Made by a program: the position numbers and the translations under genes. 64,000 nt of DNA from Naegleria gruberi (Eukaryota), in assembly GCA_000004985.1 (NCBI GenBank), contig GG738912.1; one strand, 5' to 3'. The notes beneath the pieces were generated by a model, which did no database searches, was not told where the DNA came from, and worked only from the letters and a program-made list of their open reading frames with translations. Shown piece after piece: positions 37,760 through 57,778 of the stretch (position 1 is the stretch's first letter; each line of letters opens with the position of its first letter).

Positions 37760-38990
37760 TCACGTTTTATTCTTCACCAATTTCATTGTGACCAATATTA
37801 AGTGATGTTAATTGTTTCATTTCACTTATGTATTTGGATCCTTCTACACCGATTTCATTGTAATGTATATTAAGTGATGTTAATTGTTTCATTTCACTTA
37901 TGTATTTGGCTCCTTCTACACCAATTTCATTGGAACAATATTAAGTGATGTTAATTGATTTCATTCCACTTATGAATTTGGCTCCTTCTACACCGATTTC
38001 ATTGTAATCTATATTAAGTGATGTTAATTGATTCATTTCACTTATGTATTTGGCTCCTTCTACACCAATTTCATTGGAATATATATTAAGTGATGTTAAT
38101 GATTTCATTCCACTTATGAATTTGGCTCCTTCTACACCGATTTGATTGTGACCAATATCAAGTGATGTTAATTGTTTCATTTCACTTATGTATTTGGATC
38201 CTTCTACACCAATTTGATTGTGACCAATATTAAGTGATGTTAATGATTTCATTCCACTTATGTATTTGGCTCCTTCTACACCGATTTGATTGTGACCAAT
38301 ATCAAGTGATGTTAATTGTTTCATTTCACTTATGTATTTGGATCCTTCTACACCAATTTCATTGGAATATATATCAAGTGATGTTAATTGTTTCATTTCA
38401 CTTATGTATTTGGATCCTTCTACACCAATTTCATTGGAACCAATATCAAGTGATGTTAATTGTTTCATTTCACTTATGTATTTGGCTCCTTCTACACCGA
38501 TTTCATTGTAATGTATATTAAGTGATGTTAATGATTTCATTCCACTTATGAATTTGGCTCCTTCTACAAGATTTGATTGTGACCAATATCAAGTGATGTT
38601 AATTGTTTCATTTCACTTATGTATTTGGCTCCTTCTACACCAATTTGATTGTGACCAATATTAAGTGATGTTAATTGTTTCATTTCACTTATGTATTTGG
38701 ATCCTTCTACACCAATTTGATTGGAATATATATTAAGTGATGTTAATTGATTCATTTCACTTATGTATTTGGATCCTTCTACACCGATTTGATTGTTACC
38801 AATATCAAGTGATGTTAATTGTTTCATTTCACTTATGTATTTGGCTCCTTCTACACCAATTTCATTGTAATATATATCAAGTGATGTTAATTGTTTCATT
38901 CCACTTATGTATTTGGATCCTTCTACACCAATTTGATTGTCAGAAATATCAAGTGATGTTAATTGGTTCATTCCACTTATGAATTTAAGT
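37760..38990. repeat. Tandem array of near-identical 72-bp coding repeats (24-aa RI-type LRR units)
   Basis: Visible periodicity, e.g. the ttaacatcacttgatat..ggtgtagaaggagccaaatacataagtgaaatgaaacaa complement repeated at least 16 times with a few substitutions per unit. Confidence 0.8.
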
Positions 38991-39327
38991 TTATCTGAAG
39001 AGTTAAGCAAGCCACAAGAAAACTTAACATTTACAATACTATTCATGAATTGACTTTTCATTAACAATTCAATTCTTTTTTCTGTTAATTGTTTTGTAAA
39101 TTGAATAACAAGTTTTGAACGATCCTTTATCACATTAAACCATTGTTTTGAAATTAAAGAACAATTATTCAAAATAAACCACGAATCATCAATCATGCAA
39201 ATAATTTCAAAACAAACATCATCCGAAAATATAACATTCTCTATTAATTAACAATTCAATCCATTAATTATTATTTTGAAAATAACCCTTCGATAAAATA
39301 CCAACCTTCTTCTTGTTTTACCTCCAT
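37760..39327 (-). CDS. F-box-like / RI-type LRR protein built from 72-bp tandem repeats (paralogue of 56208..); frame interrupted at about 38545 and about 37945
   Basis: A probable micro-exon 1 (39327..39306, MEVKQEE) is followed by a 65-nt intron (39241..39305, donor GTTGGT). Exon 2 encodes ENVIFSDDVCFEIICMIDDSWFILNNCSLISKQWFNVIKDRS (F-box-like; compare gene 8907). At least 17 24-aa units follow, LTSLDIxxNxIGVEGxKYISxMKx. Track ORFs 38564..39196 and 37941..38540 are the same gene in shifted frames. Degenerate repeats continue to about 37760. Confidence 0.5.
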
Positions 39328-39728
39328 CGCGATGATAATTGATGATAGCTGAAATATTGGTAGTTTTTTATGATTGATATCACAAGCAACGATACCAACA
39401 GGAAACAATTAATACTTGTTACAACAATTCTTGATGTTCCGTCATGTTCTAAAATAATAATTATAAATTCACTATTAACTTAAAATTGAATAAAGGTTTC
39501 AAATTAAAAGCTAAATAAAATTGACAGACCAACAACCATCTTACTGGACTCTTAACAAATTGATGTTTTAATGCGATTGATGGAGCATAGTGCCTAGTTT
39601 GTAATATTGAAGGAAGGCCCTAATATTGATTGGAGTATTAAGAGGAATTGATGTTATCGTTTTTTAAAAAAAGCTTTTAGCTTTTAGACCCAATAATAAT
39701 TTAGATTTCCATCACAGCCCGACAAAAA

Positions 39729-41205
39729 ATGATGAAACATAAAATTGGATTCATGCTGAGGAGGAAATTAGCATCCTCACCCACGACTGTGGTTAGGAAT
39801 TTACTTCCGAACAATAGCAAGAAATCAGTGATGAGGTTTTCAATTTTGGATGACAAATCTCCTTCAATATTAATTTCTATGAATATGAAGGCTTCGTATC
39901 ATCGAAATATTAGAATGATGAACAATCAGAGACAGGAACAAGAGGAAGACTATTTTGAACACTATAGAAGACAATATCAAATTAATGAAGTTTTTGAAAA
40001 TTATTATGATACCCAATCGGAAAGAGGAAAAAAAGAACACATGAACAGATTGCTGTGGTTCTTGATTGCATTCCCAGCCTTCTTCTTTGTATCATTACAG
40101 GCCTTTTTGGCTAGTGATGCTGTTAATCATCAGGATTTGAAGAATGTTACAATAAGATTGGAAGAAGCAATACCAACTACTGTAGGAAATAGAGAGAATA
40201 TTTCAGGAGATCGTTATGATGAGTCATCCTCAATGCAACAACAAGAAAAAGCAGAGGTGATTAAAGGACCAATTTTGGACGTTCCTAATGATAATTATTT
40301 ACAAAAATTATCAAAAGATGTAAGAAGATATCCAGTTATTTGGGGAATTATTGGATTGAATTGTGCCATGATGCTTATGGTAAAAGGATTCAAAAGATCG
40401 CCAAGATTCCACGATTTTTATTCGAAACATTTGACTGTTTCAGTACATAATTTATTGAAGAGAAGATATCATACCTTGTTAACCTCCACTTTTGTACATG
40501 GTGATTGGCTTCACTTAGGTTTTTGCATGTATGGCCTTTACAATATGGGATCTCTTACCTATGATTTGATGGGACCTACAACATTTTTGCTTTTTTATTT
40601 AGGTGCTGGTATGACTGCATCAATGGGTAGTTCCTTACTCAAATTAATAACAAAGAATTATTATCAGAGATCTGTTGGTTCAAGTGGAAGTATTTTCGCA
40701 ATTGTTTTTGCTGGCCTTAATGTTATTACATTTGAGAAGGCCAAAATGAATTTAATTTTCCTTCCAGATAGTTGGGGAGGTTTCAATGCCACCTACTTTT
40801 TACCATTATATTTTGTTGGTGAAATTCTTTATAATATCTTCTCGAGAAGAGTCAAATTGGATACAGGTAAGTTTTCATACTTTTCACGTTATTGAACTCT
40901 ACAAAGGTGGTCACTTGAGCGGAGCTTTGGCTGGATATTTAGCATTGGAAGCAATGAAAAATCAATCTTATCACAAGCAAACCAGAAAAGTGGAATTTAG
41001 TGGAAGAAATACTTATTATTTGGGTGAAGTTAAAGATTTAAAAAAGAATGGAGCTGGTGCCTTAATTGGAGGAAATATGTCATATGTTGGTAATTTCAAA
41101 GATGGAAATCCAGAAGGTCAAGGAATTGTTATTGTAAATACAAACGAAGGAACAAAAGCTATTAAAGGTATCTTTAAGAATGGAAACTTTACACCAACCA
41201 AATAA
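39729..41205 (+). CDS. Rhomboid-family intramembrane serine protease (PARL-like N-terminus) fused to C-terminal MORN repeats; one 40-nt intron (40867..40906)
   Basis: Exon 1 has HGDWLHLGFCMYGLYNMGSLTYDLMG, LGAGMTASMGS and the GxSG motif in VGSSGSIFAIVFAG. GTAAGT follows at 40867. Exon 2 (from 40907) carries the TM6 His, GGHLSGALAGYLA. Then come MORN-like repeats YYLGEVKDLKKNGAGALIGGNMSYVGNFKDGNPEGQGIVIV. Confidence 0.65.
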
Positions 41206-41589
41206 ATCGTTGCAAAATTTAGAAGGATTACACGTTAAACCAAATGAAATCTTTGTTGGCTAATTCTGTTTCCTTATTTTCAGTGTCTAAGTATTGCAGT
41301 TTTCTCACAAATATTTAAAAAAATGGAAGACAGCGATAGTGGTACGTTGCATGGTTCAACATTGATAGTAACATTAAAGACTGCAAAACACCTTTCAAGC
41401 TCACGGAAACTTTGTTAAATAATGACTATTTGAAAGAGATTGAATATTATTAAACAAAGAATCGAACCTAGTTTCTGTGCAAGATAAGGTTGTTGAGGAT
41501 TTAGACAAACTCTCCACCATTTTAGGTTGCTCCAAACAAGAGGCATTCAATAGAATGGTGTTAGCTATGAGAATATTACCTTTTCATTA

Positions 41590-42692
41590 TTGAATTGCTC
41601 TATTTTTAATGAAGACCAACACAAGGGAAGCCAACACTTGTTGGAGTATGCCAAACAACCATCCCAAGAGAATCTGAACATTGTTTTGAGTTATTACAAA
41701 CTAAAGACTGATTACAAGTCGTTTATATTGAGAGCTCTAGATCCTCTCCAACTTGAAATATATGAGGAAACCACAAAATTACCAAAAACTACAACCCATT
41801 TTAGTCCACTTTTCGATCTTGCAGCACTTTCATCGTGCAACAATCTGTTGGTGAATAGCAATAAGCAAATTCCAGGTTTACTCAACAAACATACAGCAAT
41901 CTTTAACAGAACTACAAGTGGATGCTGTCCTAGTTCAACAATACAATGAAAAGCTTCTTTTAAAGATAATAAGGGAAGACAACAAAGATAGATTTATGAA
42001 TCATCTTAATTTTTATCATGCGATTAGCATTATCTAGAAAGGTGAGAGAACTAGTTAAAAGAGACCTTAAACCAGAAATACACAATAATCTATTCGTTTT
42101 GGGAATGACAACAGATAGAGAAGTGACCAAAACCATTGGAAACAAAAGTTCAAATGGATCCCTCTCTACATTTTTCCTTCAAAGAAAAAGCAAAAGATGT
42201 TACTTCCAGTACAACTGATTCACTGTGGAAAGGAGTTTTAGAGAAAGATCTTGGTAAATCATGGAATGCTTATGCAAAAAAATCTCAACAGGCAGTAATG
42301 ACATTAAAATCACTCAACTACCCTTTCTCACACTTTATATCGCTATGTTACCTACTCTAGAAGGCGAGCCAGTTACCAAGTTCAAAAATAAGGAAGAAGC
42401 TATCATTGATCTGGTTCAGTTAGTGTTACTGGGTATATGCAAAACTATTCATAACGATATCAAACCCGATAATGTGGTCAAATATGATGGTCATTTCTTT
42501 TTGATTGATTATGGCATCTCATTACTCTACCACTCTTTCAATGGAAATCAATGTTTTGATAAGGAACTTAAACCAATCAAATCCAAATCTGTACTCACCA
42601 CTCCTCTTTATGATTCCCCTGAAAAGGCAAAGGATGGATGTGTTTCTCCAAAAAGTGATTTGTATTCTTTAGGAGTCTATTTCTTCTATTGA
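41590..42692 (+). pseudogene. Protein-kinase-like gene fragmented over at least 4 frames (possible pseudokinase pseudogene, or a multi-intron gene I cannot resolve)
   Basis: The last ORF (42261..42692) holds the kinase C-lobe: IHNDIKPDNVV...FLIDYG...TPLYDSPE...SDLYSLGV. No canonical GxGxxG/VAIK N-lobe is visible upstream. A second RDLKPE-like string lies at about 42060 in another frame. Confidence 0.35.
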
Positions 42693-42821
42693 TTTGTCTT
42701 TAGTCTAACCAACTTGGTGAGGTCATTAAAAGAGACTCCAACAAATGACTAAACCAGTACTGGAAGAATAAACTAATTTACAAAATTGTTTTTTTACTAA
42801 AATTACAAAAAAGGATAATAT

Positions 42822-43181
42822 TTAAATAACACCCTTATACTTCATATCAGAGGCACAAATGTGAGTAATCAACCATTGCTTAATAAATTGCATTTCAGCA
42901 TCTCCAACACTTGTCAATGCCAAAGCATCCTGAACAAACTTATCATGAGTTTCCTTATGAGAGGCAGATTCAGACCAACCAGCCTTAGCAAACAAATCTT
43001 CTTCAGTCTTGAAGTGGAAAACAACGTAATCTAATAATTCCTTCAATGTTGTGCCACAACTTCTCTTGGCATCTAAGGCATTGATGAGAGTGAAGAGTTT
43101 CTTGTGTTGTTCGTTTAATTCAGCATTGCCAATATCGAGAGTGGTTGACCATTCGTATGGAGTTGGGATTGGATAGGACAT
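42822..43181 (-). CDS. Hemerythrin-like (HHE cation-binding) protein
   Basis: 119 aa. Blocks EWSTTLDIGNAELNEQHKKLFTLINAL, LLDYVVFHFKTEEDLF...HKETHDKFV and IKQWLITHICASDMKY match the hemerythrin His/Glu/Asp ligand pattern (H..E, H...H, H....D). Single exon, ATG 43181. Confidence 0.7.
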   Translation of the reverse strand: MSYPIPTPYEWSTTLDIGNAELNEQHKKLFTLINALDAKRSCGTTLKELLDYVVFHFKTEEDLFAKAGWSESASHKETHDKFVQDALALTSVGDAEMQFIKQWLITHICASDMKYKGVI

Positions 43182-43476
43182 GTTTGTTGTATTTGTTTTT
43201 GTTTTTGTTTGTGAAAAAGTGATGTTAGCAACTAGAATTGATTGCTATTTATTTGAAAATAGTGACATGTGTCAGTGACATTTTTGTAATGTTAAAAATA
43301 TGAACTTTTTTGGAGATTTTTAAGTTTGTACAAAATTGTCGTAATAAATTAATGGCGTTTGGCGTGTTGTTAAGAAACGCCACGTCAACCATTGTTTACA
43401 ATTAATTTGAATGTTCACACAAAGAATTTACAACAATCAATTTATAAAAGAGCAGAATGAAAGTATAGGTGTGAAA

Positions 43477-44538
43477 TCATTTAATTCTTGCAAGAATATA
43501 TTCATGACAATAGAATAGTTCACCACTTTTTTGATAAATTACTGGAGAACAATAATAATGCTTTGAAAGGTAACCCATTAGAGGCTCGTTCTTTGGTTGA
43601 CTATTTGGTGGAACTTGAAATGTTTTTACCAATTTTCCATCCCAATTGACCACACTGAAATGTCCAACTCCTTCACAAAGAATGATTTGTCTAGAAAATT
43701 CATCAACTCTGATTAATGTTCCATATTTTGGTTCAAAATCGAGTTTTGCCTTGTGTGTAATTTTCAAAGTTTTCAATTCAATCCAACACAATTCATTTTG
43801 GTTATTGAGATAAATTATTCTATCATTTTCTGATAAAATTGTTCCGTCCTGAATTGATTTGATATTGAGTTGCATTTCTTTCTCATTAGAGTCAATCTTA
43901 ATTAAACTTCCATCAATTATTGAATAGTAGGCAAAATGAGATCCATCACACAACATGAGTGTGAAATTCTCTTCCATTTTCACAATATTCAAAGTCGTTC
44001 CCTTATATATTTCTCTATTATTATTGATATGACTTGAAACTTTCCAAATTGGTTGAGGAGTTTCAGGAGGACTCTTAACAAATGTGAAAAAACTTGTATT
44101 TGGCTTGAAATTGAAAATACTTTCCAGATCATATTTGTATAAATTGAAATCATACTCAAAAAGATACAAATCAGTGCCAATTCTTGAATCATCTATTTGA
44201 GAAAATGCAGCACAAAGCACATTTCCACTTCCCAACCTCACAACCTTGATTAATAGGTTGGTTTTGAGATCAACAAATGCAATTGTAATTTTTCCCTGCA
44301 AGCTGATCAATAGAATAATCCATGAAAATTGTGGACACACTCCGATATGATAGGATGGATATGGGCTACTCCTTGATGGTGCAATTCTGGCATAAGCTCT
44401 GAATGATTTAATTGTGTGGTAGGATTGAAAAGTTAGTGTTGGATTGTAGGATTTCAAGTTGATATGGTTGGAGAAGAGTTGGAAGAGATTGGTGGGAGTT
44501 GGAAAATTAAAGGAGAGATCTTGGAAGGAGTGTGACAT
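43477..44538 (-). CDS. Hypothetical protein (no recognisable domain; possibly beta-propeller-like)
   Basis: 353-aa ORF with an A-rich start (caaataaaaaaaATG). Confidence 0.4.
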   Translation of the reverse strand: MSHSFQDLSFNFPTPTNLFQLFSNHINLKSYNPTLTFQSYHTIKSFRAYARIAPSRSSPYPSYHIGVCPQFSWIILLISLQGKITIAFVDLKTNLLIKVVRLGSGNVLCAAFSQIDDSRIGTDLYLFEYDFNLYKYDLESIFNFKPNTSFFTFVKSPPETPQPIWKVSSHINNNREIYKGTTLNIVKMEENFTLMLCDGSHFAYYSIIDGSLIKIDSNEKEMQLNIKSIQDGTILSENDRIIYLNNQNELCWIELKTLKITHKAKLDFEPKYGTLIRVDEFSRQIILCEGVGHFSVVNWDGKLVKTFQVPPNSQPKNEPLMGYLSKHYYCSPVIYQKSGELFYCHEYILARIK

Positions 44539-44718
44539 TTTTTTTATTTGTAAATTGAAGAGTTATGATAAGTTCATATTGTAAAGAAGTTGATGTAACC
44601 ACAGTTTGTAATGAAGGATTTAATGAATTGCATGGTTATTGAAACATAGATTGTTGTAAAACTAACAACGTAGTGATTACCTTAACAAGTACATATCCTT
44701 AATGTTCATTAATGTGTC

Positions 44719-44791
44719 GGGGTCTTGGCGCAGTCGGTAGCGCGTAGGTCTCATAATCCTAAGGTCGTGAGTTCGATCCTCACAGACCCCA
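44719..44791 (+). tRNA. tRNA-Met (CAU), elongator type
   Basis: GGGGTCTTGGCGCAGTCGGTAGCGCGTAGGTCTCATAATCCTAAGGTCGTGAGTTCGATCCTCACAGACCCCA. The 7-bp acceptor stem pairs, A box TGGCGCAGTCGG and B box GGTTCGATCC are present, and the anticodon CAT is at 44752..44754. It resembles eukaryotic elongator Met. Confidence 0.85.
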
Positions 44792-44798
44792 TCTTTTT
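44792..44798 (+). terminator. Pol III T-run terminator downstream of tRNA-Met
   Basis: tcttttt immediately 3' of the discriminator base. Confidence 0.4.
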
Positions 44799-45205
44799 GA
44801 GTTATTAAAAAAGCAAGGAAAATTCCTGTTAACTTTTTGTAAATTCTCATACGTGTCAATGATTATTAACCTTGGAGCTCCACCAAAGCCCGACTCGTTC
44901 TCCAACAGTCCAATTCAAACCCAATACCAGAAATTCACAACACCCGGAATATTATCTTGTAATTTCTTCACATACGCTTGTATCTTTATTTTAACAGCAC
45001 AACTTCAATCAAATTATGAACCTACCCAAAAACCAAACTCTCCACCAAAAACCAAACATCAATTAATCTCTCTCACCATTCAGAATTGATAACTGTGTTT
45101 ATTTCTCTTCGGGCATGCCACATTGCTTTCTGATGATGACGACATGGAAATTCAAAGCCTTTCAGAAAAAAGAAGGAAAAAAAATTTATTAGCAGGAAGA
45201 AAAAA

Positions 45206-47076
45206 ATGTCAACAGGCTCGCCATCATCACCATCTTCGCCGCAAAAATCATCGCCATCCAATGATGGTGATAAGAAGAGTGTAAATAAGGAGGAAGAAGC
45301 TATTGGTATTTGTACAACTACTAAAGAGAGATTTAATGTTCCTCTCACTTATGATTGCACTGACGTTTTTGTTACTCCTCAAAAGTGGACTGAATGGCCA
45401 GTTATTATTGAATTGCTCCTTATCTTCTTCTATAGTGCCACTTATCTGTTAGGAATTCTTCCAAAATGGGTATGTTTTATAATGATGAAAATTAAATATT
45501 CACCAAATTTCGTGATGAATAGTTCTTCCTGGTAAATTATATCTTTTGGAGATTGGCTTATAACTGTGGTTTAGGATATATTCTTTCAACACAATCCAAC
45601 GGAAAACATTTCACTAAATTGGTTCAAAATTTAATCAAAACTCACAAACCAATGTTAGAAAGTAACTTGTCACTCAGAGGTAAAAACGGTGTTGTTAAAC
45701 ATGAAAAGTATCGTATTGATGATTATCCTTTGGATTTTACTGCTTGGATGGTTTATCGTGCTGTTGTTGATGTTATTTTGAGTAGTGATTTGGCTGGTTA
45801 TATTGTTTTCTGTGTTGCCTATTTTGAACTCCCAACAACATTTGGTCTCTATGAATTTATTTCCTATGGTATTGGTATTTCCTTGTGTCTTTTCAACTTG
45901 TGGGCTAAATCCGATGCTCATCGTGTTTTGGGTGACTATGCTTGGTATTGGGGAGATTTCTTCTTCTTGTTGGATAAGAATTTAGTTTTTGATGGTATTT
46001 TCCAAATGTTCCCTCATCCAATGTACAGTGTTGGTTATAGTTTCTATTATGGTGTTTCTATCATGTCTAGATCTCACACAGTTTTAGTTGTTTCTTTCTG
46101 TGCTCACATGTTGCAATTGATTTTCCTAGTATTCGTTGAAAATCCACACATTGAAAAGATTTACGGTGGAATGAGTTCTGAAACCAATCAAACTTCAGAA
46201 CGTGAACCAATCTTCTTCAAGAATTTGGAACCATTCAAGAATCCTGATGATTTATTCTTGGTTGTTATTATTTGTTATGCCATGTTTACATCTTTGACAG
46301 CATCATTCACTACAGCTGTTGGTCATGCTGTTTTGTGGAGATTGATTCATCATGTCGGAATGGGATATATTCTTTACGGTCAAGCTAAGAATCAAGCATT
46401 TACAAAGAGATTCACAAAGTTAGGCGGTACAAGTCAACAAGCTTTCACATTCTTTAAGAAGTTATATAATTTCTCTCTCACTATTAATCACGTCATTATG
46501 GTTACACTCACTGCTAAGATCTTTATTACTACATTCATTTGGTCAGGTTTCGTTGCTGCTGATGGTGCTTCTGATTATCACTTTGAAGGTTTCTCTCAAT
46601 TGTTGTCATGGCAATATGCTACTCAATTGGTTGCTGGTATTATCTTGATTCTCCTCAACATTTATCAATCTACTTCTACTCATGAAGTTTTGGGAGATCA
46701 TGGTTGGTTCTATGGAGACTTTTTCTATACTGAAACAAATCAAAACAAACAGCCATCATATACTGGTATTTACAGATACTTGAACAATCCTGAAATTGTT
46801 CTTGGTTATTGTGCCTATTTTGGTTTGGCTCTCATTTCCAAGTCATATGCCGTATTAGGATTGGCCATTTTGTCTCAATTTGCCACATATCTTTTCGTCA
46901 AGTTTGTTGAAAAGCCACACATGGACAAGATTTACGGAGCTAAGAATTTGAGAGAAAAGGGTGGTATTGAAATGGAATTATCTCGAGTTACTTCCCATCC
47001 AAAGATTGCTGCTTTGAATGAACGACTTGATGAAAACATCTCTAAGGTCAAGAAACTTTTACTGAAACAAGACTAA
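45206..47076 (+). CDS. Phosphatidylethanolamine N-methyltransferase, CHO2-type (two PEMT repeats); 53-nt intron 45470..45522
   Basis: ORFs 45206..45535 and 45553..47076 join at ...LLGILPKW|FFLVNYIFWRLAYNCGLGYIL after removing gtatgtttta...gaatAG. Two PEMT blocks are present: HRVLGDYAWYWGDFFF...FPHPMYSVGYSFYYG...ENPHIEKIYG and HEVLGDHGWFYGDFFY...YRYLNNPE...EKPHMDKIYG. Confidence 0.7.
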
Positions 47077-47131
47077 ACCGAGGAAAACAAACACTTTAAT
47101 TTAATAAATAAAAAATTTTGAAAAAAAGTAT

Positions 47132-49963: not shown

Positions 49964-50207
49964 TTTTTTTTAAGATTTTTTTCCCTCCATATTTTATTTT
50001 TAAATTGCTTTTTTGATTTTTAAGAGTTTTTCCAATTCTTTGATGATTGGAAGGAAGAACAAGAAGATTTCTTCGAATTGATGATGAAAATCGAATTTTA
50101 CTTGATTTTAATACAAATTATTAAAAGGCAAGTTGACAAGAAGATAATGTTCATCATATTGCCTTTTTCACATTTTGACAAATTACACTGTCACCCTTCA
50201 AAAAAAA

Positions 50208-51752
50208 ATGACAAACCTCAACATTCCATTTCCATCCATTCCACCACCACAATTAAATGAGCAACAACAACTAAATTATCAGCAACAACAAGTAAATATT
50301 CCACCATCAAATATTCAACCAAAAGCTCCAAGAGTCATTCCACTTCCTATCGAACAAGAACAATTAACTTTACAACAAAATTATGTTTCACAAGCGAGAT
50401 GGATTCCAGTGGCTAACCTCATCATGTCATCTAAATATCACGCTTGTTCGAATATGGTTCATAATTTATCTGAAGGTGATGCAAAGGAAGGTTTTTCTGG
50501 TGTTTGTACAACCGATGCAACTAATCGTGAGTTTATTCAAGTTTCGTTTAGTTCAGATCATTCAATGGTTGCTCAAATTACAAGAATGATTATTAGACCA
50601 TGTATTAAAGATACTTGGGGACCTCAATATCTTGATGGTTGTTCAATTGAATACAAATCAGGTCAATCAGATTGGCAATTTCTTTGTAAAATTAAATTGG
50701 ATTCAAAAGGAGTGATGGATATTACTTCACCTCAACCAATTCCAATTTCAACATTGAGAATTACTCCATCCACAACAAGTAATTATATTGGATTGGGTAC
50801 ATGGAAGTTTTATGGAATTTTAAGTGAGACACGTTCTTTATTTAATGAATTTTATAGAGAACCATTAACTGGATTGACTTTGAAGGATGAATTTGGAAAT
50901 GAATTAAGTCAATTGTATTGTCTTTCTTATCAATTATTAATGAGTAGTTATTATGGAAAGGGTGTAGCAAATACATTCTTTGAATTGATGAATGATGCAA
51001 ATGATAAGACAGGTGCTGCAACATTTCAAGAATTAGATCCATACATTCAAGCTAATTTGAAAAGTCCACAATATATTACACACCTCCTTGTTAAGCCATA
51101 TGCTGCCAGTGGTTGGGGATTTAAATATTTAGATAATGCATGGGTTCAATATTCTAATGATGGAATTGAATGGGAAAATGTGATAAAAATTACAGATGCA
51201 AATAGACATGTCTATACTTTACCATTCCCAATTAAATCAGCATATTGGAGAATTTGTAGAGAAGGTATTGAACATTTGGCAGTTTCTGCTTTCAAGTTAT
51301 ACACTCTCAAACCATTTTACAATTTTGCTAGTGCTCCTGTCTCATTACCACAAAATGAAATTCGATTCAGACCTCAAATATCTTCATGTTATTCAGGTCT
51401 TTCCCTTTCCTATGAAGGTTTTCAAGATGAGAGTGGTGCATTTGGATGTGGAACTGAGAAGGGATCATCTCACTACTTGTTGGCCACCTTTGATCAATTG
51501 TACGATATCAAATTAATCAAGATTAGATCTTTAAGAGATGGTTCTTGGGGTGCTTCCTATTCTGAGAAGATCAAAATCCAATACTCTGAGAATGGAGTGG
51601 AATGGTATGATTTCAGAAGTGCTGATTTCAATCATGAAGATTTAAAGTTTATCTATGCAAATCCACCAATCTGTGCAAGATTTGTCAAATTGGTTCAAAA
51701 TGAGGAATATATGGGTGTTGGTACTCTCAAATTTTATGGAGATAAAGTTTAA
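50208..51752 (+). CDS. Protein with three discoidin / F5-8 type C (galactose-binding-like) domains and a Q-rich N-terminus
   Basis: The domain-terminal ...GLGTWKFYG, ...AVSAFKLYT and ARFVKLVQNEEYMGVGTLKFYG repeat three times, each after a W/Y-rich beta-sandwich-like block. Start ATG 50208 (aaaaaaaaATG). Confidence 0.5.
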   Translation: MTNLNIPFPSIPPPQLNEQQQLNYQQQQVNIPPSNIQPKAPRVIPLPIEQEQLTLQQNYVSQARWIPVANLIMSSKYHACSNMVHNLSEGDAKEGFSGVCTTDATNREFIQVSFSSDHSMVAQITRMIIRPCIKDTWGPQYLDGCSIEYKSGQSDWQFLCKIKLDSKGVMDITSPQPIPISTLRITPSTTSNYIGLGTWKFYGILSETRSLFNEFYREPLTGLTLKDEFGNELSQLYCLSYQLLMSSYYGKGVANTFFELMNDANDKTGAATFQELDPYIQANLKSPQYITHLLVKPYAASGWGFKYLDNAWVQYSNDGIEWENVIKITDANRHVYTLPFPIKSAYWRICREGIEHLAVSAFKLYTLKPFYNFASAPVSLPQNEIRFRPQISSCYSGLSLSYEGFQDESGAFGCGTEKGSSHYLLATFDQLYDIKLIKIRSLRDGSWGASYSEKIKIQYSENGVEWYDFRSADFNHEDLKFIYANPPICARFVKLVQNEEYMGVGTLKFYGDKV

Positions 51753-51859
51753 TTATCATATCAATACTATTACAACAGTCGGACTATTTCATCGGACACT
51801 TTACTTTTTCTGTGCGAACCAAACTCTGTTCACAATCAATTGTGAAGCACACAAAAAAA

Positions 51860-52990
51860 ATGTCCACACATCACTTACACAACACTGAGCATGATGATGC
51901 AGCTTTGTGTGAATGTACACATCATCACGAGCAGCACGATGATGAAAATTATGAATGTAACTTGAAACCCTATTCATATCCATGGTATCCATTTATGGAA
52001 ACAATGAAACCAGGAATTAAAAAATTCCCAACACGATTACATGCTCTTCTCAAAGAAGATAATCCATATATTAATAGTGGATATAGAAAGATGCCAATAG
52101 AATCCATTCAAAAATGCATTTATTCAATATTTACTTTACATAATGAAACTTTAAATATTTGGACACATTTAATTCCTGCTCTCTATTTTGGATATTTAAT
52201 ATTTCAATGTACAATTGAGTCAATTTATAGTCAAAAGGATATTATGGATACTGTAATTTCATTCATTTATTATACAAGTGCTTTTTTAATGTATTTATTA
52301 AGTGCAATTTATCACATATTTAGAATGAATAATGAAACTAGTTACCATTTTTGTTTAATTTGTGATTTGAGAGGAATAATTTCAATATTTTCAGGAGCTA
52401 ATATTTGGTCTTGTTATTATTTTTTGAAGGGATTTGATAATATTTCAATAGTATTAACATGTATTAGTTTAGTAGGATATATTCACTTGTGGACTTGGAT
52501 TCCAAAAATGGTTAAATATAGATTAACAAAACAAAGAACAATTAATTTTGCAATTTTTAGTACGTTGGGTATTGGTAGTATGATTTTGAGATTTTACATG
52601 CAATATGAATATATTTTCAAACCACTAGTTGGAAATCAAGTTTCTTTTATTGATTTAATTTTAAATGCTACTTTTGGAAATGAATTGAATATTACCATAT
52701 CTAATCCTCATTTATTTGAATTATTGGATTTTAATAGATTACTATTCAGAACAGTCATTATCAGATCTTACTTTTTACTAATTTTGGCAATGATTTTCAG
52801 AGTCACTAAATTTCCTGAGAAATACTTCCCTTACAAGTTTGATATTTTTGGAGCTAGTCATCAAATATTCCATGCAATTGTTGCAATTTGTTTAATGTGG
52901 AATCACCATGATTTGTGGGCAGATTATACCACTCATGATTCAGTCCAATTACATTACACTTTATTAGAACAAATTTTACAAAAATCTTAA
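51860..52990 (+). CDS. PAQR-family (adiponectin-receptor/haemolysin-III-like) 7-TM protein with His-rich N-terminus
   Basis: HNETLNIWTHL and SHQIFHAIVAICLMWNHHDL hallmarks with 7 predicted TM segments. The N-terminus is MSTHHLHNTEHDDAALCECTHHHEQHDDE. Confidence 0.7.
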   Translation: MSTHHLHNTEHDDAALCECTHHHEQHDDENYECNLKPYSYPWYPFMETMKPGIKKFPTRLHALLKEDNPYINSGYRKMPIESIQKCIYSIFTLHNETLNIWTHLIPALYFGYLIFQCTIESIYSQKDIMDTVISFIYYTSAFLMYLLSAIYHIFRMNNETSYHFCLICDLRGIISIFSGANIWSCYYFLKGFDNISIVLTCISLVGYIHLWTWIPKMVKYRLTKQRTINFAIFSTLGIGSMILRFYMQYEYIFKPLVGNQVSFIDLILNATFGNELNITISNPHLFELLDFNRLLFRTVIIRSYFLLILAMIFRVTKFPEKYFPYKFDIFGASHQIFHAIVAICLMWNHHDLWADYTTHDSVQLHYTLLEQILQKS

Positions 52991-53016
52991 TTTACTATCA
53001 ATGTTAACACATTATA

Positions 53017-54207
53017 CTAATTTACAACCTTTCTAGTCTTTTTGAATCTTTGCTTTTCTAAAATAAAAACTAGATGAGAAATTTGCACACCCATTTCAGT
53101 ACCTGCCATATTCAAATTATTTCCTGTGAAATGTCTTCTAATAATGAGATTATTATCAACATTAAAACTTGAAACCAATGTTCCTATTTGAATACCAGTG
53201 AATGGATAACTAGCATGGAGAATATCAAATCTATTCACTTTCTGATCATTATTCAAATCATCCAATTCAAATTTAGTGTTTGGCTTACTATCTTTTGCAA
53301 TATAAATTGTAAACTGATTGTAAGGATAAATAAACAACTTTCTAAAATCTTGTCTTCCAATTCTCAAAATAACCTCATTATACAGAGTGAGTTCATCAAC
53401 ATAAATCCACGCTCCTCTTGTTCCTTCATTATGTTCAATAATTTCCAAACCAGGATTTTCCAATTCCTTCTCGAAATCTAAATCATACAAGGTGATATCA
53501 TGAATTTCCTGATTCAATTTTTCAAAATAAGTTTCATCTTTCAACCATTCAAACATTGCTGAGAAGGCAATTTGCAATTCTTCACAATAAACTTCACAAT
53601 GTCCCTCTCTCTCAATATATAACAATTGAGGAATAACAATTGATGTATCTTTCTCTTTTTCTTCTTTTGATTTTTCAATATAATCTTTAACAATTGACAT
53701 TTCACTAGAATTACAAATATAAATCTGAGGAATCTTTGGTTTGTACAAGAATTGAATAGGATCATCAATTGGATCTTTTTGAATAAACAAAGCAGCTCCC
53801 GTGGCAATAATTCCACTAAATTCATTCCTTGTAAATCTTTCATTCAATAGTGTAACAATAGCTCCTCCCATTGATTCTGCTTCCAAAATTACAGTTAATC
53901 CTTCTGAATTTCCATTACAATATTTATCAATTATAAAATTTCTTAAATCATTTACATCTTCCACTGAATCCTTTAATATATATCCCTCTCTACGATAAGA
54001 AGTTGATGCTAATATAAAACCTCTTCTAAGTAAGGTAGCATATGGTTCGGAATGATAGTCAAATACTGCAGTTAAAGGTATTCCAACTGGTCTATAACCA
54101 TGACACCAAATGTAAATTCCCTTGATGGAACTGTTCAATGTTTCATCAAGAGGAGGTAAAACAATTTTATAAACTGCTCCTTTATCACTGATACCATCAA
54201 TAATCAT
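53017..54207 (-). CDS. Alpha/beta-hydrolase-fold protein (GxSxG nucleophile elbow)
   Basis: LTVILEAESMGGAIVTLL (G-E-S-M-G) after a beta-strand/HG region (IWCHGYRPVG). About 396 aa; the C-terminal 150 aa are unassigned. Confidence 0.5.
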   Translation of the reverse strand: MIIDGISDKGAVYKIVLPPLDETLNSSIKGIYIWCHGYRPVGIPLTAVFDYHSEPYATLLRRGFILASTSYRREGYILKDSVEDVNDLRNFIIDKYCNGNSEGLTVILEAESMGGAIVTLLNERFTRNEFSGIIATGAALFIQKDPIDDPIQFLYKPKIPQIYICNSSEMSIVKDYIEKSKEEKEKDTSIVIPQLLYIEREGHCEVYCEELQIAFSAMFEWLKDETYFEKLNQEIHDITLYDLDFEKELENPGLEIIEHNEGTRGAWIYVDELTLYNEVILRIGRQDFRKLFIYPYNQFTIYIAKDSKPNTKFELDDLNNDQKVNRFDILHASYPFTGIQIGTLVSSFNVDNNLIIRRHFTGNNLNMAGTEMGVQISHLVFILEKQRFKKTRKVVN

Positions 54208-54445
54208 TTTTTTTTGTTGTGTTGTTTGAGTTTAGTGGATTTGTTGTGAAAATGAACTTGTTAATTCAATGAACATGGAACTGTTAGTGCAGATAACCTA
54301 ACTAAGAAGAGATATTAACAACAAAACAATTCTCAATAGGGTTAGCAATGACAAATCATAGACGGCTATGTAATTGCTAAACAAACATATACCAACAAAT
54401 AACAGGGAGAAAGCATGAATAAGGTGACAAACAACGCTTAATGTA

Positions 54446-54518
54446 GCCCGTCTAGCTCAGTCGGTAGAGCGCAAGGCTCTTAACCTTGTGGTCGTGGGTT
54501 CGACCCCCACGGTGGGCG
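54446..54518 (+). tRNA. tRNA-Lys (CUU)
   Basis: GCCCGTCTAGCTCAGTCGGTAGAGCGCAAGGCTCTTAACCTTGTGGTCGTGGGTTCGACCCCCACGGTGGGCG. Anticodon CTT is at 54479..54481, with A/B boxes. It is followed by ttttatttttg T-runs. Confidence 0.85.
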
Positions 54519-54775
54519 ATTTCCTTTTATTTTTGCATTGAATTTATGTTGATTTTGTTGTACCAATTTCTTGAAATCTCATCTTTATTTGATTGTCTGG
54601 TACATAAGTTACAAACAACCTCAAGAACTTATCTGTATCTTGTTGAAAACCATAAGAGAAAGGCTACTTATGTGTCACTTGCAAGAGAAGAAATAGAAAC
54701 TGTTACATGTTCTGAATATTCGACCTTCAGGATAGGCGATTTTCTTTTTCTTCCTCATATTTTATTAAGCATTCA

Positions 54776-55903
54776 CTATTCCTTCTTTTTCTTTGCCTTT
54801 GGTTGAGTAAATGCATTAGCTTTTCTCTTACCAGTGTATTCATTTGTCTTTTCAAGCTTATTTAACATTTGGTGTCTCAAAAATCTCACATTGCTTGGAT
54901 CAACATTGTGATGTGGCATTACAGTTCGTGTTGGTTGTTCTTCTTGATTGACCACTCGAATATCTTGTTCATTAATATTTTCAATAACTTCTTGTGGGTG
55001 AACATTTGGAGAAGTGTTTTCTATATTGTTGGATGGGGTATTTCTATGTCTTGTGTTTCGTCTAGATCCATTAACTCCATTTCGTATCCTAGGCCTGACT
55101 GCAATATTTTCTTGGTTGATAGTAGATCTATTAGCAGGTTGTTCAAGATTTTCATTTCTTCTATTCGAAACAACAGGTCTAATTTTTTCAAGATTCCCAT
55201 TTACAACATTATAATTCCTGACAATCCTATTATCACCTTCCAAGTTTTGATTCAATCTAAGTGGTAGTTCATTATTCACCACCACATTATTTCTTTCCAT
55301 CATTTCTCTATTTGGATCACCAGTTGACCTCATTAAACAATATCCAATAAATATGATTCCAATCAATTCAATTGCACTTCTATTAAAATAAAACATCCAA
55401 TACACAGCAAGAAATCCTGAAATAGCTCCAAACAAGTGTCCAATAAAATCTCCATAAAACATTGCTACTAAAATACTCAATTGGAAAGGATTAACTCCAA
55501 GCATTACATATAAAAATGCTTCATAACCATATACTACTCCACTAAATCCTATGGCATTGTGAGTTCGGTAAAATTGCTTTACACGTTGAAATTTGTTAAT
55601 AATTAGGGAATAGTATAAAAAGTCAACCATGTAATTAATCAAAATAATACAAATTGAAATGTGCGCAAATAAAAACAGAGTTGCAAATTGCTCAAATTCT
55701 TCAGATAATTGATTAAAACAATATAAATTTGATATTAAATGAATTAAATCTACATGGAGGAAAATATGTGAAACTGATCTATACCATTCTTTGTTTTCGA
55801 ATATTCTAACGAAATTATGTGACCACCTGTTATTATGTTCTTCTGTTCGGAAGAGGTGAGCCAGAGTCATCAGAGCAAATATAGAATTTACAAATGTCCT
55901 CAT
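54776..55903 (-). CDS. Second rhomboid-family protein with N/R-rich C-terminal tail
   Basis: TM2 H..N (SHIFLHVDLIHLISNL), GxSG in AIGFSGVVYGY and the TM6 His in IGHLFGAISGF. Start ATG 55903 (aaaaaaaaATG); the track start is upstream. Confidence 0.55.
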   Translation of the reverse strand: MRTFVNSIFALMTLAHLFRTEEHNNRWSHNFVRIFENKEWYRSVSHIFLHVDLIHLISNLYCFNQLSEEFEQFATLFLFAHISICIILINYMVDFLYYSLIINKFQRVKQFYRTHNAIGFSGVVYGYEAFLYVMLGVNPFQLSILVAMFYGDFIGHLFGAISGFLAVYWMFYFNRSAIELIGIIFIGYCLMRSTGDPNREMMERNNVVVNNELPLRLNQNLEGDNRIVRNYNVVNGNLEKIRPVVSNRRNENLEQPANRSTINQENIAVRPRIRNGVNGSRRNTRHRNTPSNNIENTSPNVHPQEVIENINEQDIRVVNQEEQPTRTVMPHHNVDPSNVRFLRHQMLNKLEKTNEYTGKRKANAFTQPKAKKKKE

Positions 55904-56207
55904 TTTTTTTATTACGTTTTTTAAGCATTCATGTTTACTGTATATAAGAATTCTGATAATGTGTGATTCACACAAAAAACCAATGGTAAAAAAATATTTG
56001 AAAACTTACTGTAAAGAATTTTGTTTGGGAATTTATAGACTCCGTTTGCAACGTATTTTAAAATGCGCATTTGCCGGAAGTCTATTTGTTATCATTTTAG
56101 AACATGACGGAACATCAATAGTTGTAACACAACTTCATTGTATCGTTGCTTGTGATTTTAATCAGAAAAAACTACCAATATTTCAGCTATCATCAATTAT
56201 CATCGCG

Positions 56208-57778
56208 ATGGAGGTAAAACAAGAAGGTTGGTATTTCGAAGGGTTATTTTCAAAATAATAATTAATGGATTGAATTGTTAATTAATAGAGAATGTTATAT
56301 TTTCGGATGATGTTTGTTTTGAAATTATTTGCATGATTGATGATTCGTGGTTTATTTTGAATAATTGTTCTTTAATTTCAAAACAATGGTTTAATGTGAT
56401 AAAGGAACGTTCAAAACTTGTTATTCAATTTACAAAACAATTAACAGAAAAAAGAATTGAATTGTTAATGAAAAGTCAATTCATGAATAGTATTGTAAAT
56501 GTTAAGTTTTCTTGTGGCTTGCTTAACTCTTCAGATAAACTTAAATTCATAAGTGAAATGAAACAATTAACATCACTTGATATACATTCCAATGAAATTG
56601 GTGTAGAAGGAGCCAAATTCATAAGTGAAATGAAACATTAACATCACTTGATATACATTACAATGAAATCGGTGTAGAAGGAGCCAAATACATAAGTGAA
56701 ATGAAATCAATTAACATCACTCGATATATATTCCAATGAAATTGGTGTAGAAGGAGCCAAATACATAAGTGAAATGAAACAATTAACATCACTTAATATT
56801 GGTTACAATGAAATTGGTGTAGAAGGATCCAAATTCATAAGTGAAATGAAACAATTAACATCACTCGATATATATTCCAATGAAATTGGTGTAGAAGGAG
56901 CCAAATACATAAGTGAAATGAAACAATTAACATCACTTGATATACATTACAATGAAATTGGTGTAGAAGGATCCAAATACATAAGTGAAATGAATCAATT
57001 AACATCACTTGATATACATTCCAATCAAATTGGTGTAGAAGGAGCCAAATACATAAGTGAAATGAAACAATTAACATCACTTGATATACATTACAATGAA
57101 ATTGGTGTAGAAGGATCCAAATACATAAGTGAAATGAATCAATTAACATCACTTGATATACATTCCAATCAAATTGGTGTAGAAGGAGCCAAATTCATAA
57201 GTGAAATGAAATCATTAACATCACTTGATATACATTACAATGAAATTGGTGTAGAAGGATCCAAATACATAAGTGAAATGAAATCATTAACATCACTTGA
57301 TATATATTCCAATGAAATTGGTGTAGAAGGAGCCAAATACATAAGTGAAATGAATCAATTAACATCACTTGATATGCTTCCAATTAAATTGGTGCAGAAG
57401 GAACCAAATTCATAAGTGAAATGAAACAATTAACATCACTCGATATATATTCCAATGAAATTGGTGTAGAAGGAGCCAAATACATAAGTGAAATGAAATC
57501 ATTAACATCACTTGATATACATTACAATGAAATCGGTGTAGAAGGATCCAAATACATAAGTGAAATGAAATCATTAACATCACTTGATATATATTCCAAT
57601 GAAATTGGTGTAGAAGGAGCCAAATACATAAGTGAAATGAAACAATTAACATCACTTGATATTGGTCACAATGAAATCGGTGTAGAAGGAGCCAAATTCA
57701 TAAGTGGAATGAAACAATTAACATCACTCGATATATATTCCAATGAAATTGGTGTAGAAGGAGCCAAATACATAAGTG
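56208..57778 (+). CDS. F-box-like / RI-type LRR protein, inverted paralogue of 37760..39327; partial (runs into assembly gap) with internal frame breaks
   Basis: Micro-exon ATGGAGGTAAAACAAGAAG (56208..56226) is followed by a 62-nt intron (56227..56288, donor GTTGGT). Exon 2 encodes ENVIFSDDVCFEIICMIDDSW..., with the same N-terminal sequence as the other locus. The 72-bp LRR repeats run from about 56560. A 1-nt loss near 56636 creates a stop, and the frame resumes at 56774 and 57421. Confidence 0.5.
56560..57778. repeat. Tandem array of near-identical 72-bp LRR-coding repeats abutting the gap
   Basis: About 17 units of ttaacatcac ttgatata(c/t)attccaatgaaattggtgtagaagga(g/t)ccaaa(t/a)tacataagtgaaatgaa(a/t)caa. 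Confidence 0.8.

What the first reader, a model, noticed from the sequence alone, without database searches (positions are those of the whole stretch)
37760..57778. Inverted segmental duplication of an F-box/LRR gene (about 1.7 kb + repeats) bracketing a 17-kb block, one copy ending in the assembly gap
Region 37760..39455 (minus) and 56095..57778 (plus) share the upstream about 250 bp, a probable micro-exon MEVKQE(E) with an unusual GTTGGT donor, the intron, the F-box-like exon and a run of near-identical 72-bp LRR repeats. Similarity decays outside about 39455/56095. The inverted copies flank a block carrying rhomboids, hemerythrin, two tRNAs, CHO2, PAQR and other genes. They could mediate inversion of that block. 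The 4.5-kb gap begins exactly inside the repeat array, so the gap probably reflects unassemblable repeats. The true array may be much longer than either visible copy.
Basis: seen in the sequence. Interest (0 to 1): 0.55.

Follow-up and report, generated by a model that had tools for sequence, protein, structure and literature searches.

The report
Inverted pair of broken LRR genes
Two near-identical, oppositely oriented copies of an amoeba (Naegleria gruberi) F-box-like leucine-rich-repeat gene flank a 16.6-kb block; this is an ordinary young gene-family duplicate, both copies look damaged or mis-assembled, and the repeats explain the assembly gap.

Summary
Window 37767-39460 (-) and 56089-57778 (+) align in inverted orientation at 91% over 1,699 columns. 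From the ATG to the start of the array the copies differ by one substitution and two 3-nt indels. Each carries a 72-bp (24-residue LRR) array of about 17 units. The 4,529-N gap starts 13 nt into unit 18 of copy B.

The window is the Naegleria gruberi NEG-M reference, on a 238,573-bp scaffold. The gene belongs to a Naegleria family of divergent F-box-like plus RI-type LRR proteins. A third, intact, diverged member lies at 8907-10094.

- Both copies carry frame-breaking lesions and have no gene model.
- The two arrays are not collinear at any register. They contain identical units within each array, which indicates rapid unit turnover.
- Half of the lesions are hybrids of the two unit types, so assembly error cannot be excluded.
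- The gap also holds at least 654 nt of a malic-enzyme gene, which caps the hidden array at about 50 units.

Inversion of the block is possible (320 nt with one mismatch) but nothing here tests it. The splice proposal is plausible and unverified. This is an ordinary feature of low interest.

The parts
37767..39460 (-). Arm A: complete copy of the F-box-like/LRR gene with about 130 nt of shared upstream sequence
   Evidence: BLASTN inverted alignment to 56089-57759, 91.2% over 1,699 columns. Terminal TAA at 37769-37767.
39328..39460 (-). Arm A shared upstream (promoter-proximal) region
   Evidence: Aligns to 56089-56207: 110 of 134 columns identical, 10 mismatches, 14 gap columns. Homology ends at 39460.
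39306..39327 (-). Arm A proposed exon 1 (MEVKQEE, phase 1)
   Evidence: Sequence reading and script. Has one extra GAA codon relative to arm B. Not verified by RNA.
39241..39305 (-). Arm A proposed 65-nt intron (GTTGGT...AATAG)
   Evidence: Contains in-frame stops. Homology to the environmental paralog L001 starts at 39237, just inside the acceptor.
38987..39240 (-). Arm A F-box-like motif plus linker
   Evidence: The arm alone gives Pfam PF12937 E = 0.084, below threshold. In the family, 9 of 12 members hit PF12937 (best 1.6e-4) and 7 of 12 hit PF00646. hhalign of the family profile against a Pfam-passing F-box gives 93% probability, E = 3.2e-7.
37770..38986 (-). Arm A array: 17 units of 72 bp (24-residue RI-type LRR)
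   Evidence: TRF period 72, 16.9 copies. Pfam LRR_6 E = 3.6e-27 and 3.4e-43. Unit table.
38556..38626 (-). Unit A6: 71 nt, -1 frameshift leading to a stop
   Evidence: The ORF breaks between 39196-38564 and 38540-37941.
37908..37979 (-). Unit A15: +1 and -1 lesions with a stop between them
56089..57778 (+). Arm B: 5' part of the second copy, cut off by the gap
56208..56226 (+). Arm B proposed exon 1 (MEVKQE, phase 1)
56227..56288 (+). Arm B proposed 62-nt intron
56289..56542 (+). Arm B F-box-like motif plus linker
   Evidence: One substitution (D/E) relative to arm A. Exact matches of 171 and 148 nt separated by that one mismatch.
56543..57778 (+). Arm B array: 17 units plus 13 nt of an 18th
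   Evidence: TRF 17.2 copies. Unit table.
56615..56758 (+). Units B2 (71 nt, -1) and B3 (73 nt, +1): a frame-shifted stretch with stops
   Evidence: Both lesions are hybrids of the AAACAATTAAC and AAATCATTAAC unit types.
57335..57405 (+). Unit B12: 71 nt, degenerate
   Evidence: At least 5 differences from every other unit.
57779..62307 (.). Assembly gap of 4,529 N
   Evidence: It begins inside unit B18 and ends inside the malic-enzyme gene.
62308..63633 (-). Malic-enzyme gene, 5' part; its 3' part lies in the gap
   Evidence: Pfam malic domain positions 1-115 and 116-182, then Malic_M positions 1-40 of 258 at the gap edge. Introns with GTATGT donors.
39461..56088 (.). 16,628-nt block between the arms
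   Evidence: Gene content. tBLASTX of the block against itself found no inverted (mirror-image) matches, only same-strand internal repeats within the PEMT and F5/8-type-C genes.
8907..10094 (-). Third, intact, diverged family member (395 aa)
   Evidence: tBLASTN 61% identity in the F-box-like part and 40-50% in the LRRs. Translation. Pfam LRR_6 1.5e-35 and F-box 0.0092.

Best explanation
The arms are two separate, oppositely oriented paralogs of one gene in the Naegleria gruberi NEG-M reference genome. The gene belongs to a Naegleria family with a short variable N-terminus, a divergent F-box-like three-helix motif, a linker of about 45 residues, and a solenoid of 24-residue ribonuclease-inhibitor-type LRRs.

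Inferred origin: a recent inverted duplication, or a recent gene-conversion event. It covered about 130 nt of upstream sequence and the gene itself.

Inferred array dynamics: the 72-bp units turn over quickly by unequal exchange, replication slippage or conversion. This is why the arrays share unit types but not unit order.

State of the copies as assembled: both are disrupted by frameshifts and stops and neither has a gene model. They are therefore most likely young pseudogenes. Some lesions could instead be consensus errors in a repeat that 2000s-era Sanger assembly could not resolve.

The gap exists because the assembler could not walk through array B.

An intact copy would be expected (by analogy, not shown) to act as an SCF substrate receptor. 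The F-box would bind Skp1, and the concave LRR face would bind the target; that face carries the two most variable codons.

The arms are a possible substrate for inversion of the block by non-allelic homologous recombination. No evidence shows that this happens.
For: Organism:
- Six ORFs are exact matches to N. gruberi proteins on a 238,573-bp scaffold.

Two distinct loci:
- The flanks are different within continuous sequence. Arm A lies between a P450 gene and rhomboid 1. Arm B follows rhomboid 2.
- The upstream 134 columns differ by 10 mismatches and 14 gap columns.
- Homology stops at 39460/56089.

Recency:
- Between the ATG and the array start there is 1 substitution in 334 aligned bases.
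- The best annotated paralogs are only 62-81% identical.

Array turnover:
- Mean difference is about 7 per 72 nt at every register, from -8 to +8 units.
- Identical units occur within arrays: A10 = A12, B5 = B13, B6 = B8, B7 = B9, B11 = B15.

Coding origin of the units:
- 15 of 24 codons are invariant across 28 units.
- Variation is concentrated in codons 15 and 16 (the xx of LxLxxN), with 5 alleles each. Cell counts are 93 nonsynonymous against 20 synonymous.

Disruption:
- Units A6, A15, B2, B3 and B12 are 71 or 73 nt, or carry stops.
- B12 has at least 5 unique changes.
- There is no protein more than 81% identical, and no exact ORF, in a 15-billion-protein collection that does hold the neighbouring genes.

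Family and fold:
- Pfam LRR_6 scores reach 3.4e-43.
- The AlphaFold model has pLDDT 86 and a regular LRR solenoid.
- The best PDB match is the RipG4 LRR domain at E = 2.3e-10. Ribonuclease inhibitor, NLRP3 and FBXL2-SKP1 are also listed.
Against: - Three of the six lesions (B2, B3 and the +1 in A15) are exactly the hybrids expected if reads from the two unit types (AAACAATTAAC and AAATCATTAAC) were piled up together. Part or all of the 'pseudogene' signal may therefore be assembly error.
- No reads or RNA data were available.
- The arm alone does not reach any Pfam F-box threshold (13.1 bits against 24.3). The F-box part of the model has low confidence (pLDDT 43-62).
- Both arms have a rhomboid gene as their head-to-head neighbour. 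A simple recent one-gene duplication does not predict this.
Confidence: 0.72

Rival explanations
1. Both copies are intact, functional genes. The frameshifts and stops are consensus errors made when the Sanger assembler stacked reads from different, nearly identical 72-bp units.
For: - The B2 (-1), B3 (+1) and A15 (+1) lesions all sit at the single place where the two unit types differ by offset bases, and each is a hybrid of the two types.
- The B2/B3 and A15 lesions are compensated pairs.
- Unit variation keeps 15 of 24 codons invariant and falls mainly on the canonical variable LRR positions.
- The array could not be assembled through, hence the gap.
- Annotated paralogs also end abruptly inside LRRs, for example P0004 and P0006.
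Against: - B12 carries five private changes plus a deletion, which is more like decay than a base-calling error.
- The A6 lesion is a compound change (GGT to TT), not a type hybrid.
- The same hybrids would also arise in vivo by template switching.
- No gene model was accepted by the annotators.
Confidence: 0.3
2. The duplication itself is an assembly artefact. There is one locus, or an allelic haplotype, placed twice; or arm B's array was attached to the wrong 5' end.
For: - Arm B ends in a gap, so its 3' junction is unseen.
- The 340-nt region that is more than 99% identical could allow a chimeric join.
Against: - Both 5' junctions, and arm A's 3' junction, lie in uninterrupted sequence with unrelated flanks.
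- The upstream parts differ by several indels.
- Unit order and unit types differ between the arrays.
- Allelic copies would share flanks, and these do not.
- The gap length of 4,529 is a specific estimate, which (from my own knowledge of scaffolding practice) implies spanning clones.
Confidence: 0.07
3. An old inverted duplication of a two-gene module (F-box-like LRR gene head-to-head with a rhomboid gene). The rhomboids then diverged freely, while the LRR genes were kept, or recently made, nearly identical by gene conversion.
For: - Each arm has a rhomboid-domain gene as its divergent neighbour. ATG-to-ATG distance is about 400 nt for arm A and about 305 nt for arm B.
- Identity steps from 82% upstream to more than 99% in the gene, which looks like a conversion tract.
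- By my own rough estimate, chance adjacency of two members of one small family is of the order of 1 in 1,000.
Against: - The rhomboids share only 23% identity over 149 residues (E = 0.029 pairwise).
- Other proteins score far better against rhomboid 2 than rhomboid 1 does (71.5 bits against about 22), so they are not shown to be sister paralogs.
- tBLASTX found no inverted paralogy anywhere in the block.
- The third paralog and the environmental paralog L001 have no rhomboid neighbour.
Confidence: 0.12
4. The arms act as recombination sites that flip the 16.6-kb block, either as a population polymorphism or as a regulated switch.
For: - The repeats are inverted, with 320 nt carrying one mismatch and 1.2-kb arrays at about 90% identity.
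- Inverted repeats of this size are known substrates for non-allelic homologous recombination (general knowledge).
Against: - There is no second orientation in any data available here.
- The block holds unrelated housekeeping genes with mixed orientation, and no recombinase gene.
- Nothing suggests a benefit from switching.
Confidence: 0.05

Closest known systems
FBXL-type F-box/LRR substrate receptors of SCF ubiquitin ligases (e.g. SKP2, FBXL2, plant TIR1)
   Same: - An N-terminal motif of about 40 residues with the F-box pattern, followed by an LRR solenoid.
- FBXL2-SKP1 is among the structural matches.
- The family profile aligns to a genuine F-box at 93% probability.
   Different: - The motif is too divergent to pass Pfam thresholds.
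- The LRRs are 24-residue RI-type units that are almost identical to each other at the DNA level.
- Skp1 binding is untested.
- Both copies here are disrupted.
GALA/RipG effectors of Ralstonia solanacearum (F-box plus 24-residue LRRs)
   Same: - Best structural match: RipG4 LRR domain, E = 2.3e-10, 28% identity over 164 columns.
- Same F-box plus 24-residue LRR layout (layout from my own knowledge).
   Different: These are bacterial secreted effectors. Here the gene is a eukaryotic chromosomal gene family. No relationship beyond the shared fold class was tested.
Ribonuclease-inhibitor-like LRR proteins (RI, NLRP LRR domains, RanGAP; Pfam LRR_6)
   Same: - Pfam LRR_6 is the top family, E down to 3.4e-43.
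- RI and NLRP3 LRRs are among the fold matches.
   Different: - The units are 24 residues long and uniform, not alternating 28/29.
- The N-terminal domain is different.
Inverted low-copy repeats that mediate inversions by non-allelic homologous recombination (e.g. int22h repeats at human F8; my own knowledge)
   Same: A pair of inverted repeats more than 1 kb long with 90-99% identity, bracketing unique genes.
   Different: - The arms are much shorter.
- No inversion has been observed.
- The repeat is mostly an internally repetitive array, so exchange would more often reshuffle units.
Tandem-repeat coding arrays under concerted evolution (minisatellite-like LRR arrays, e.g. in plant R-gene clusters; my own knowledge)
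   Same: - Identical units occur within an array.
- There is no positional orthology between paralogs.
- Variation is focused on the exposed LRR positions.
   Different: No evidence of function or of positive selection. The counts are of cells, not events.

Membership tests
F-box/LRR (FBXL-type) proteins | N-terminal F-box domain recognisable by sequence profile | tested here: inconclusive
   The arm N-terminus gives PF12937 E = 0.084, 13.1 bits against a cutoff of 24.3. An earlier scan found none. Across 12 family members, 9 hit PF12937 (best 1.6e-4) and 7 hit PF00646, all below the cutoff. hhalign against a Pfam-passing F-box (P0067, 39.8 bits) gives 93.1% probability, E = 3.2e-7. A profile search of PDB sequences found nothing.
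F-box/LRR (FBXL-type) proteins | Three-helix F-box fold | tested here: inconclusive
   The AlphaFold model shows helices at residues 9-14, 20-26 and 32-41, but with pLDDT of only 43-62.
F-box/LRR (FBXL-type) proteins | C-terminal LRR domain | tested here: met
   Pfam LRR_6 at 3.6e-27 and 3.4e-43, also LRR_8 and LRR_4. The modelled solenoid has pLDDT 93-98.
F-box/LRR (FBXL-type) proteins | Binds Skp1 and assembles into an SCF ligase | not testable with these tools
   Needs co-immunoprecipitation or a two-hybrid assay with N. gruberi Skp1.
Functional protein-coding gene | Uninterrupted reading frame from start to stop | tested here: not met
   As assembled, arm A breaks at units A6 and A15, and arm B breaks at B2/B3 and B12. 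Assembly error is not excluded.
Functional protein-coding gene | Annotated model or transcript | tested here: not met
   No protein more than 81% identical was found. The exact ORFs are absent, while the neighbouring genes are present. Transcripts are not testable here.
Segmental (low-copy) inverted duplication | Two copies of at least 1 kb at 90% identity or more, in opposite orientation | tested here: met
   1,699 columns at 91.2%. The non-array part has 1 substitution in 334 aligned bases.
Segmental (low-copy) inverted duplication | Copies embedded in different unique flanks | tested here: met
   Flanks align at chance level beyond 39460/56089. The 5' and 3' unique parts have no further copies in the window. 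Arm B's 3' flank is hidden by the gap.
Segmental (low-copy) inverted duplication | Collinear copies | tested here: not met
   The arrays show no preferred register; mean difference is 6.2-7.5 per unit at all offsets.
Invertible segment (NAHR inversion) | Both orientations observed | not testable with these tools
   The N. gruberi reference is not in the gene-position index (a look-up of annotated paralog P0002 failed). Metagenome scans returned nothing.
Tandem array under concerted evolution | Units more alike within a genome than position predicts; identical units within an array | tested here: met
   Five identical unit pairs occur within arrays, and the nearest neighbours of most units are non-positional.

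The most novel reading that the evidence does not exclude
The two inverted, nearly identical arrays could be a working diversification device rather than decaying duplicates. Frequent exchange of 72-bp cassettes within and between the arms would reshuffle the exposed residues (codons 15 and 16) of an F-box substrate receptor. This would give the amoeba a fast-evolving repertoire of intracellular recognition proteins, for example against bacteria or viruses that live inside amoebae.
Probability: 0.06. Interest if true: 0.55.

Novelty: new member of a known kind. Interest (0 to 1): 0.15.

Why it matters
Mostly housekeeping value.
- It flags two unannotated, probably defective members of a Naegleria-specific F-box-like/LRR family.
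- It explains one scaffold gap in the reference assembly and puts an upper bound on what the gap can hide.
- It marks a place where a long-read assembly should be checked for array length, reading-frame integrity and block orientation.

If the arrays proved intact and variable between strains, the family would be a candidate for rapidly evolving recognition proteins in amoebae. Nothing here shows that.

Tried and rejected
- Exact-protein look-ups of window ORFs and of paralog P0002 in the gene-position index found nothing. N. gruberi paralog loci and alternative assemblies therefore could not be fetched.
- Exact look-up of the arm ORFs in the protein collection found nothing.
- Two metagenome scans, with a 26-mer from the F-box-like exon and a 30-mer from the LRR unit, returned 0 hits.
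- A profile search with the N-terminal alignment returned only 5 proteins and missed P0001, P0002, P0003 and P0007, whose N-terminal segments were typed into that alignment. It cannot serve as a family census.
- A profile search of PDB sequences for the F-box-like motif gave no meaningful match.
- Enumerating GT-AG introns between neighbouring ORFs was too ambiguous to give a donor consensus. Only the malic-enzyme intron 62664-62827 is pinned down by Pfam continuity.
- Literature searches found no paper describing this family or a long-read N. gruberi assembly. The 2010 genome paper is not held.
- I tested whether the two rhomboids are sister paralogs. They share 23% identity, and other proteins score higher against rhomboid 2, so there is no support.
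- I checked small N. gruberi scaffolds (proteins P0023 and P0019) as candidates for the missing gap sequence. They are different paralogs.

Full report
**1. What is in the sequence**

The inverted similarity is real and far beyond chance.
- BLASTN aligns 56089-57759 (+) to 39460-37770 (-) at 91.2% over 1,699 columns, E = 0.
- The repeat finder lists 105 inverted pairs. Their multiplicity reflects a tandem array.
- TRF finds a 72-bp period at 37770-38986 (16.9 copies) and at 56543-57778 (17.2 copies).
- The run of N spans 57779-62307 (4,529 bases) and starts 13 nt into the 18th unit of copy B.
- Beyond 39460/56089 the flanks align at chance level.

**2. Where the window comes from**

Six single-exon ORFs are exact matches to Naegleria gruberi proteins on one 238,573-bp scaffold. 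Examples are P450 EFC37991 at 35806-37527 and EFC38045 and EFC38046 inside the block. The window is therefore the published NEG-M reference assembly.

- two rhomboids, a hemerythrin, a double-PEMT (CHO2-like) protein and a HlyIII/PAQR protein;
- a F5/8-type-C protein, a hydrolase and a kinase fragment;
- tRNA-Met and tRNA-Lys.

**3. Anatomy of the copies**

From the ATG to the first LRR unit (39327-38987 against 56208-56542) the copies differ by one substitution and two 3-nt indels. The longest exact matches are 171 and 148 nt, separated by that single mismatch.

The 134 columns upstream are only 82% identical, with 14 gap columns.

The arrays behave differently.
- Comparing units in register at any offset from -8 to +8 gives the same 6-7.5 differences per 72 nt.
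- Identical units occur within each array: A10 = A12, B5 = B13, B6 = B8, B7 = B9, B11 = B15.
- The arrays therefore share a pool of unit types but not their order. This is the signature of rapid unit turnover, or of imperfect assembly.

Copy A ends with TAA at 37769-37767 inside its 17th unit. The end of copy B is hidden by the gap.

**4. Both copies are broken as assembled**

- Unit A6 is 71 nt and runs into a stop.
- Unit A15 has a +1 and a -1 change with a stop between them.
- B2 is 71 nt, B3 is 73 nt, and B12 is 71 nt.
- B12 differs from every other unit at 5 or more positions, which looks like decay.
- B2, B3 and the +1 in A15 sit exactly where the two unit types differ (AAACAATTAAC against AAATCATTAAC). 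Each is a hybrid of the two. Either in-vivo template switching or consensus calling on mixed read pile-ups would produce this.

Neither copy has a gene model.
- The closest proteins in a 15-billion-sequence collection that contains the neighbouring genes are N. gruberi paralogs at 62-81% identity.
- The exact ORFs are absent.

I rate real pseudogenes as somewhat more likely than assembly error, but this is not settled.

**5. What the gene is**

The LRR assignment is firm.
- Pfam LRR_6 reaches E = 3.4e-43.
- The AlphaFold model has pLDDT 86 with a regular solenoid.
- The best PDB matches are the RipG4 LRR domain (E = 2.3e-10), LegL1, ribonuclease inhibitor, NLRP3 and FBXL2-SKP1.

The F-box label is supported only at profile level.
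- The arm alone scores 13.1 bits against a cutoff of 24.3.
- 9 of 12 family members hit PF12937 and 7 of 12 hit PF00646, all below threshold.
- The family profile aligns to a genuine, Pfam-passing F-box at 93% probability.
- The modelled N-terminal helices have low confidence.

A third family member, intact and much more diverged, lies at 8907-10094. TRF detects no array there, so the homogeneity of the two arms is unusual for the family.

Among 28 in-frame units, 15 of 24 codons never vary. The two most variable codons are the xx of LxLxxN, with five alleles each. This fits units derived from a protein under selection.

**6. The proposed micro-exon and intron**

Splicing 56226|56289 in copy B and 39306|39240 in copy A joins MEVKQE(E) in phase 1 to ENVIFSDD... 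in both copies. Because the copies are nearly identical here, this is one observation, not two.

An environmental relative offers independent evidence (ENA contig L001, 86% identical over 513 nt). Its homology starts at 39237, four bases inside the proposed acceptor, and its own reading frame continues upstream without interruption. The third paralog also has no intron at that point.

The donor GTTGGT differs from the GTATGT donor of the nearby malic-enzyme intron that is fixed by Pfam continuity.

The region could be a real intron. It could equally be the point where a 5'-truncated copy meets unrelated sequence. Only RNA can decide.

**7. The gap**

Beyond the gap is a minus-strand malic-enzyme gene. 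It is cut at position 40 of 258 of its NAD-binding domain.
- At least 218 residues (654 nt) of that gene lie in the gap.
- If the 4,529-nt estimate is sound, at most about 3.9 kb remains for the rest of array B, its 3' end and the spacer. That is roughly 50 further units at most.
- The inference that the gap reflects an array the assembler could not cross is reasonable.
- Several annotated paralogs also end abruptly inside LRRs.

**8. Origin and consequences**

The simplest reading is a recent inverted duplication, or a recent conversion event, covering the gene and about 130 nt upstream.

One oddity remains. Each arm has a rhomboid gene as its head-to-head neighbour. That hints at an older two-gene inverted module. 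However:
- the rhomboids share only 23% identity;
- other proteins match rhomboid 2 far better than rhomboid 1 does;
- tBLASTX found no inverted paralogy anywhere in the block.

Inversion of the block through the arms is mechanistically possible. No tool here could test it, and nothing about the block suggests a switch.

**9. Verdict**

This is an ordinary, young, inverted paralog pair from an expanded lineage-specific LRR family in a published genome. The copies are probably pseudogenes or mis-assembled arrays. It is useful mainly as an assembly and annotation note. I found no paper in the held library describing the family.

Noticed in passing
window 39729-41205 (+) and 54776-55903 (-): Each arm has a rhomboid-domain gene as its divergent, head-to-head neighbour, forming a mirror arrangement. 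The two rhomboids share only 23% identity over 149 residues and are not shown to be sister paralogs.
   Followed up: partly
window 54776-55903 (-): Rhomboid 2 is very isolated in sequence space. An exhaustive HMMER search of 1.84 billion representative proteins found only 12 relatives at E <= 0.001.
   Followed up: partly
window 8907-10094 (-): A third, intact member of the same F-box-like/LRR family (395 aa). Its LRRs are diverged, and it has no intron before the F-box-like motif.
   Followed up: partly
window 56615-56758 and 37908-37979: Three frame lesions are exact hybrids of the two unit types at codons 7 and 8 (AAAC+ATTAAC, AAATC+AATTAAC). The same +1 variant occurs in both arms. The cause could be recombination in vivo or a consensus artefact.
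   Followed up: partly
L001 2086-2877 (ENA ERZ929261 metagenome contig, 4,116 bp): An environmental Naegleria-like contig carries a close paralog, 86% nucleotide identity over 513 nt. It has only about 4 LRR units and a continuous N-terminal ORF. Its neighbours are a gelsolin-domain gene, two unannotated ORFs between that gene and the paralog, and an amino-acid-transporter-like gene; no rhomboid.
   Followed up: partly
window 42822-43181 (-): The hemerythrin protein is identical at three N. gruberi loci (EFC37887, EFC38044, EFC47558), and a copy at 90% identity or more (EFC37982) lies on the same scaffold. Recent duplication is therefore common in this genome.
   Followed up: no
window 4570-8724 (-): A 1,384-aa single-exon ORF that UniProt names RNA-dependent RNA polymerase (D2VYX5).
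   Followed up: no
window 62661-62756: An AT-rich tandem repeat of 31 bp, about 3 copies, sits inside the 164-nt intron of the malic-enzyme gene.
   Followed up: no
window 4570-35088: Nearly all long ORFs in this 30-kb stretch are on the minus strand. The block between the arms has mixed orientation.
   Followed up: no
proteins P0004 and P0006 (N. gruberi paralogs on other scaffolds): Annotated family members end abruptly inside an LRR unit. This suggests that gene models of this family are generally truncated by gaps or frame breaks.
   Followed up: no
window 42261-42692 (+): A 143-aa ORF matches only the middle of the protein-kinase domain (Pfam positions 118-188 of 263). It is either one exon of a split gene or a fragment.
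   Followed up: no
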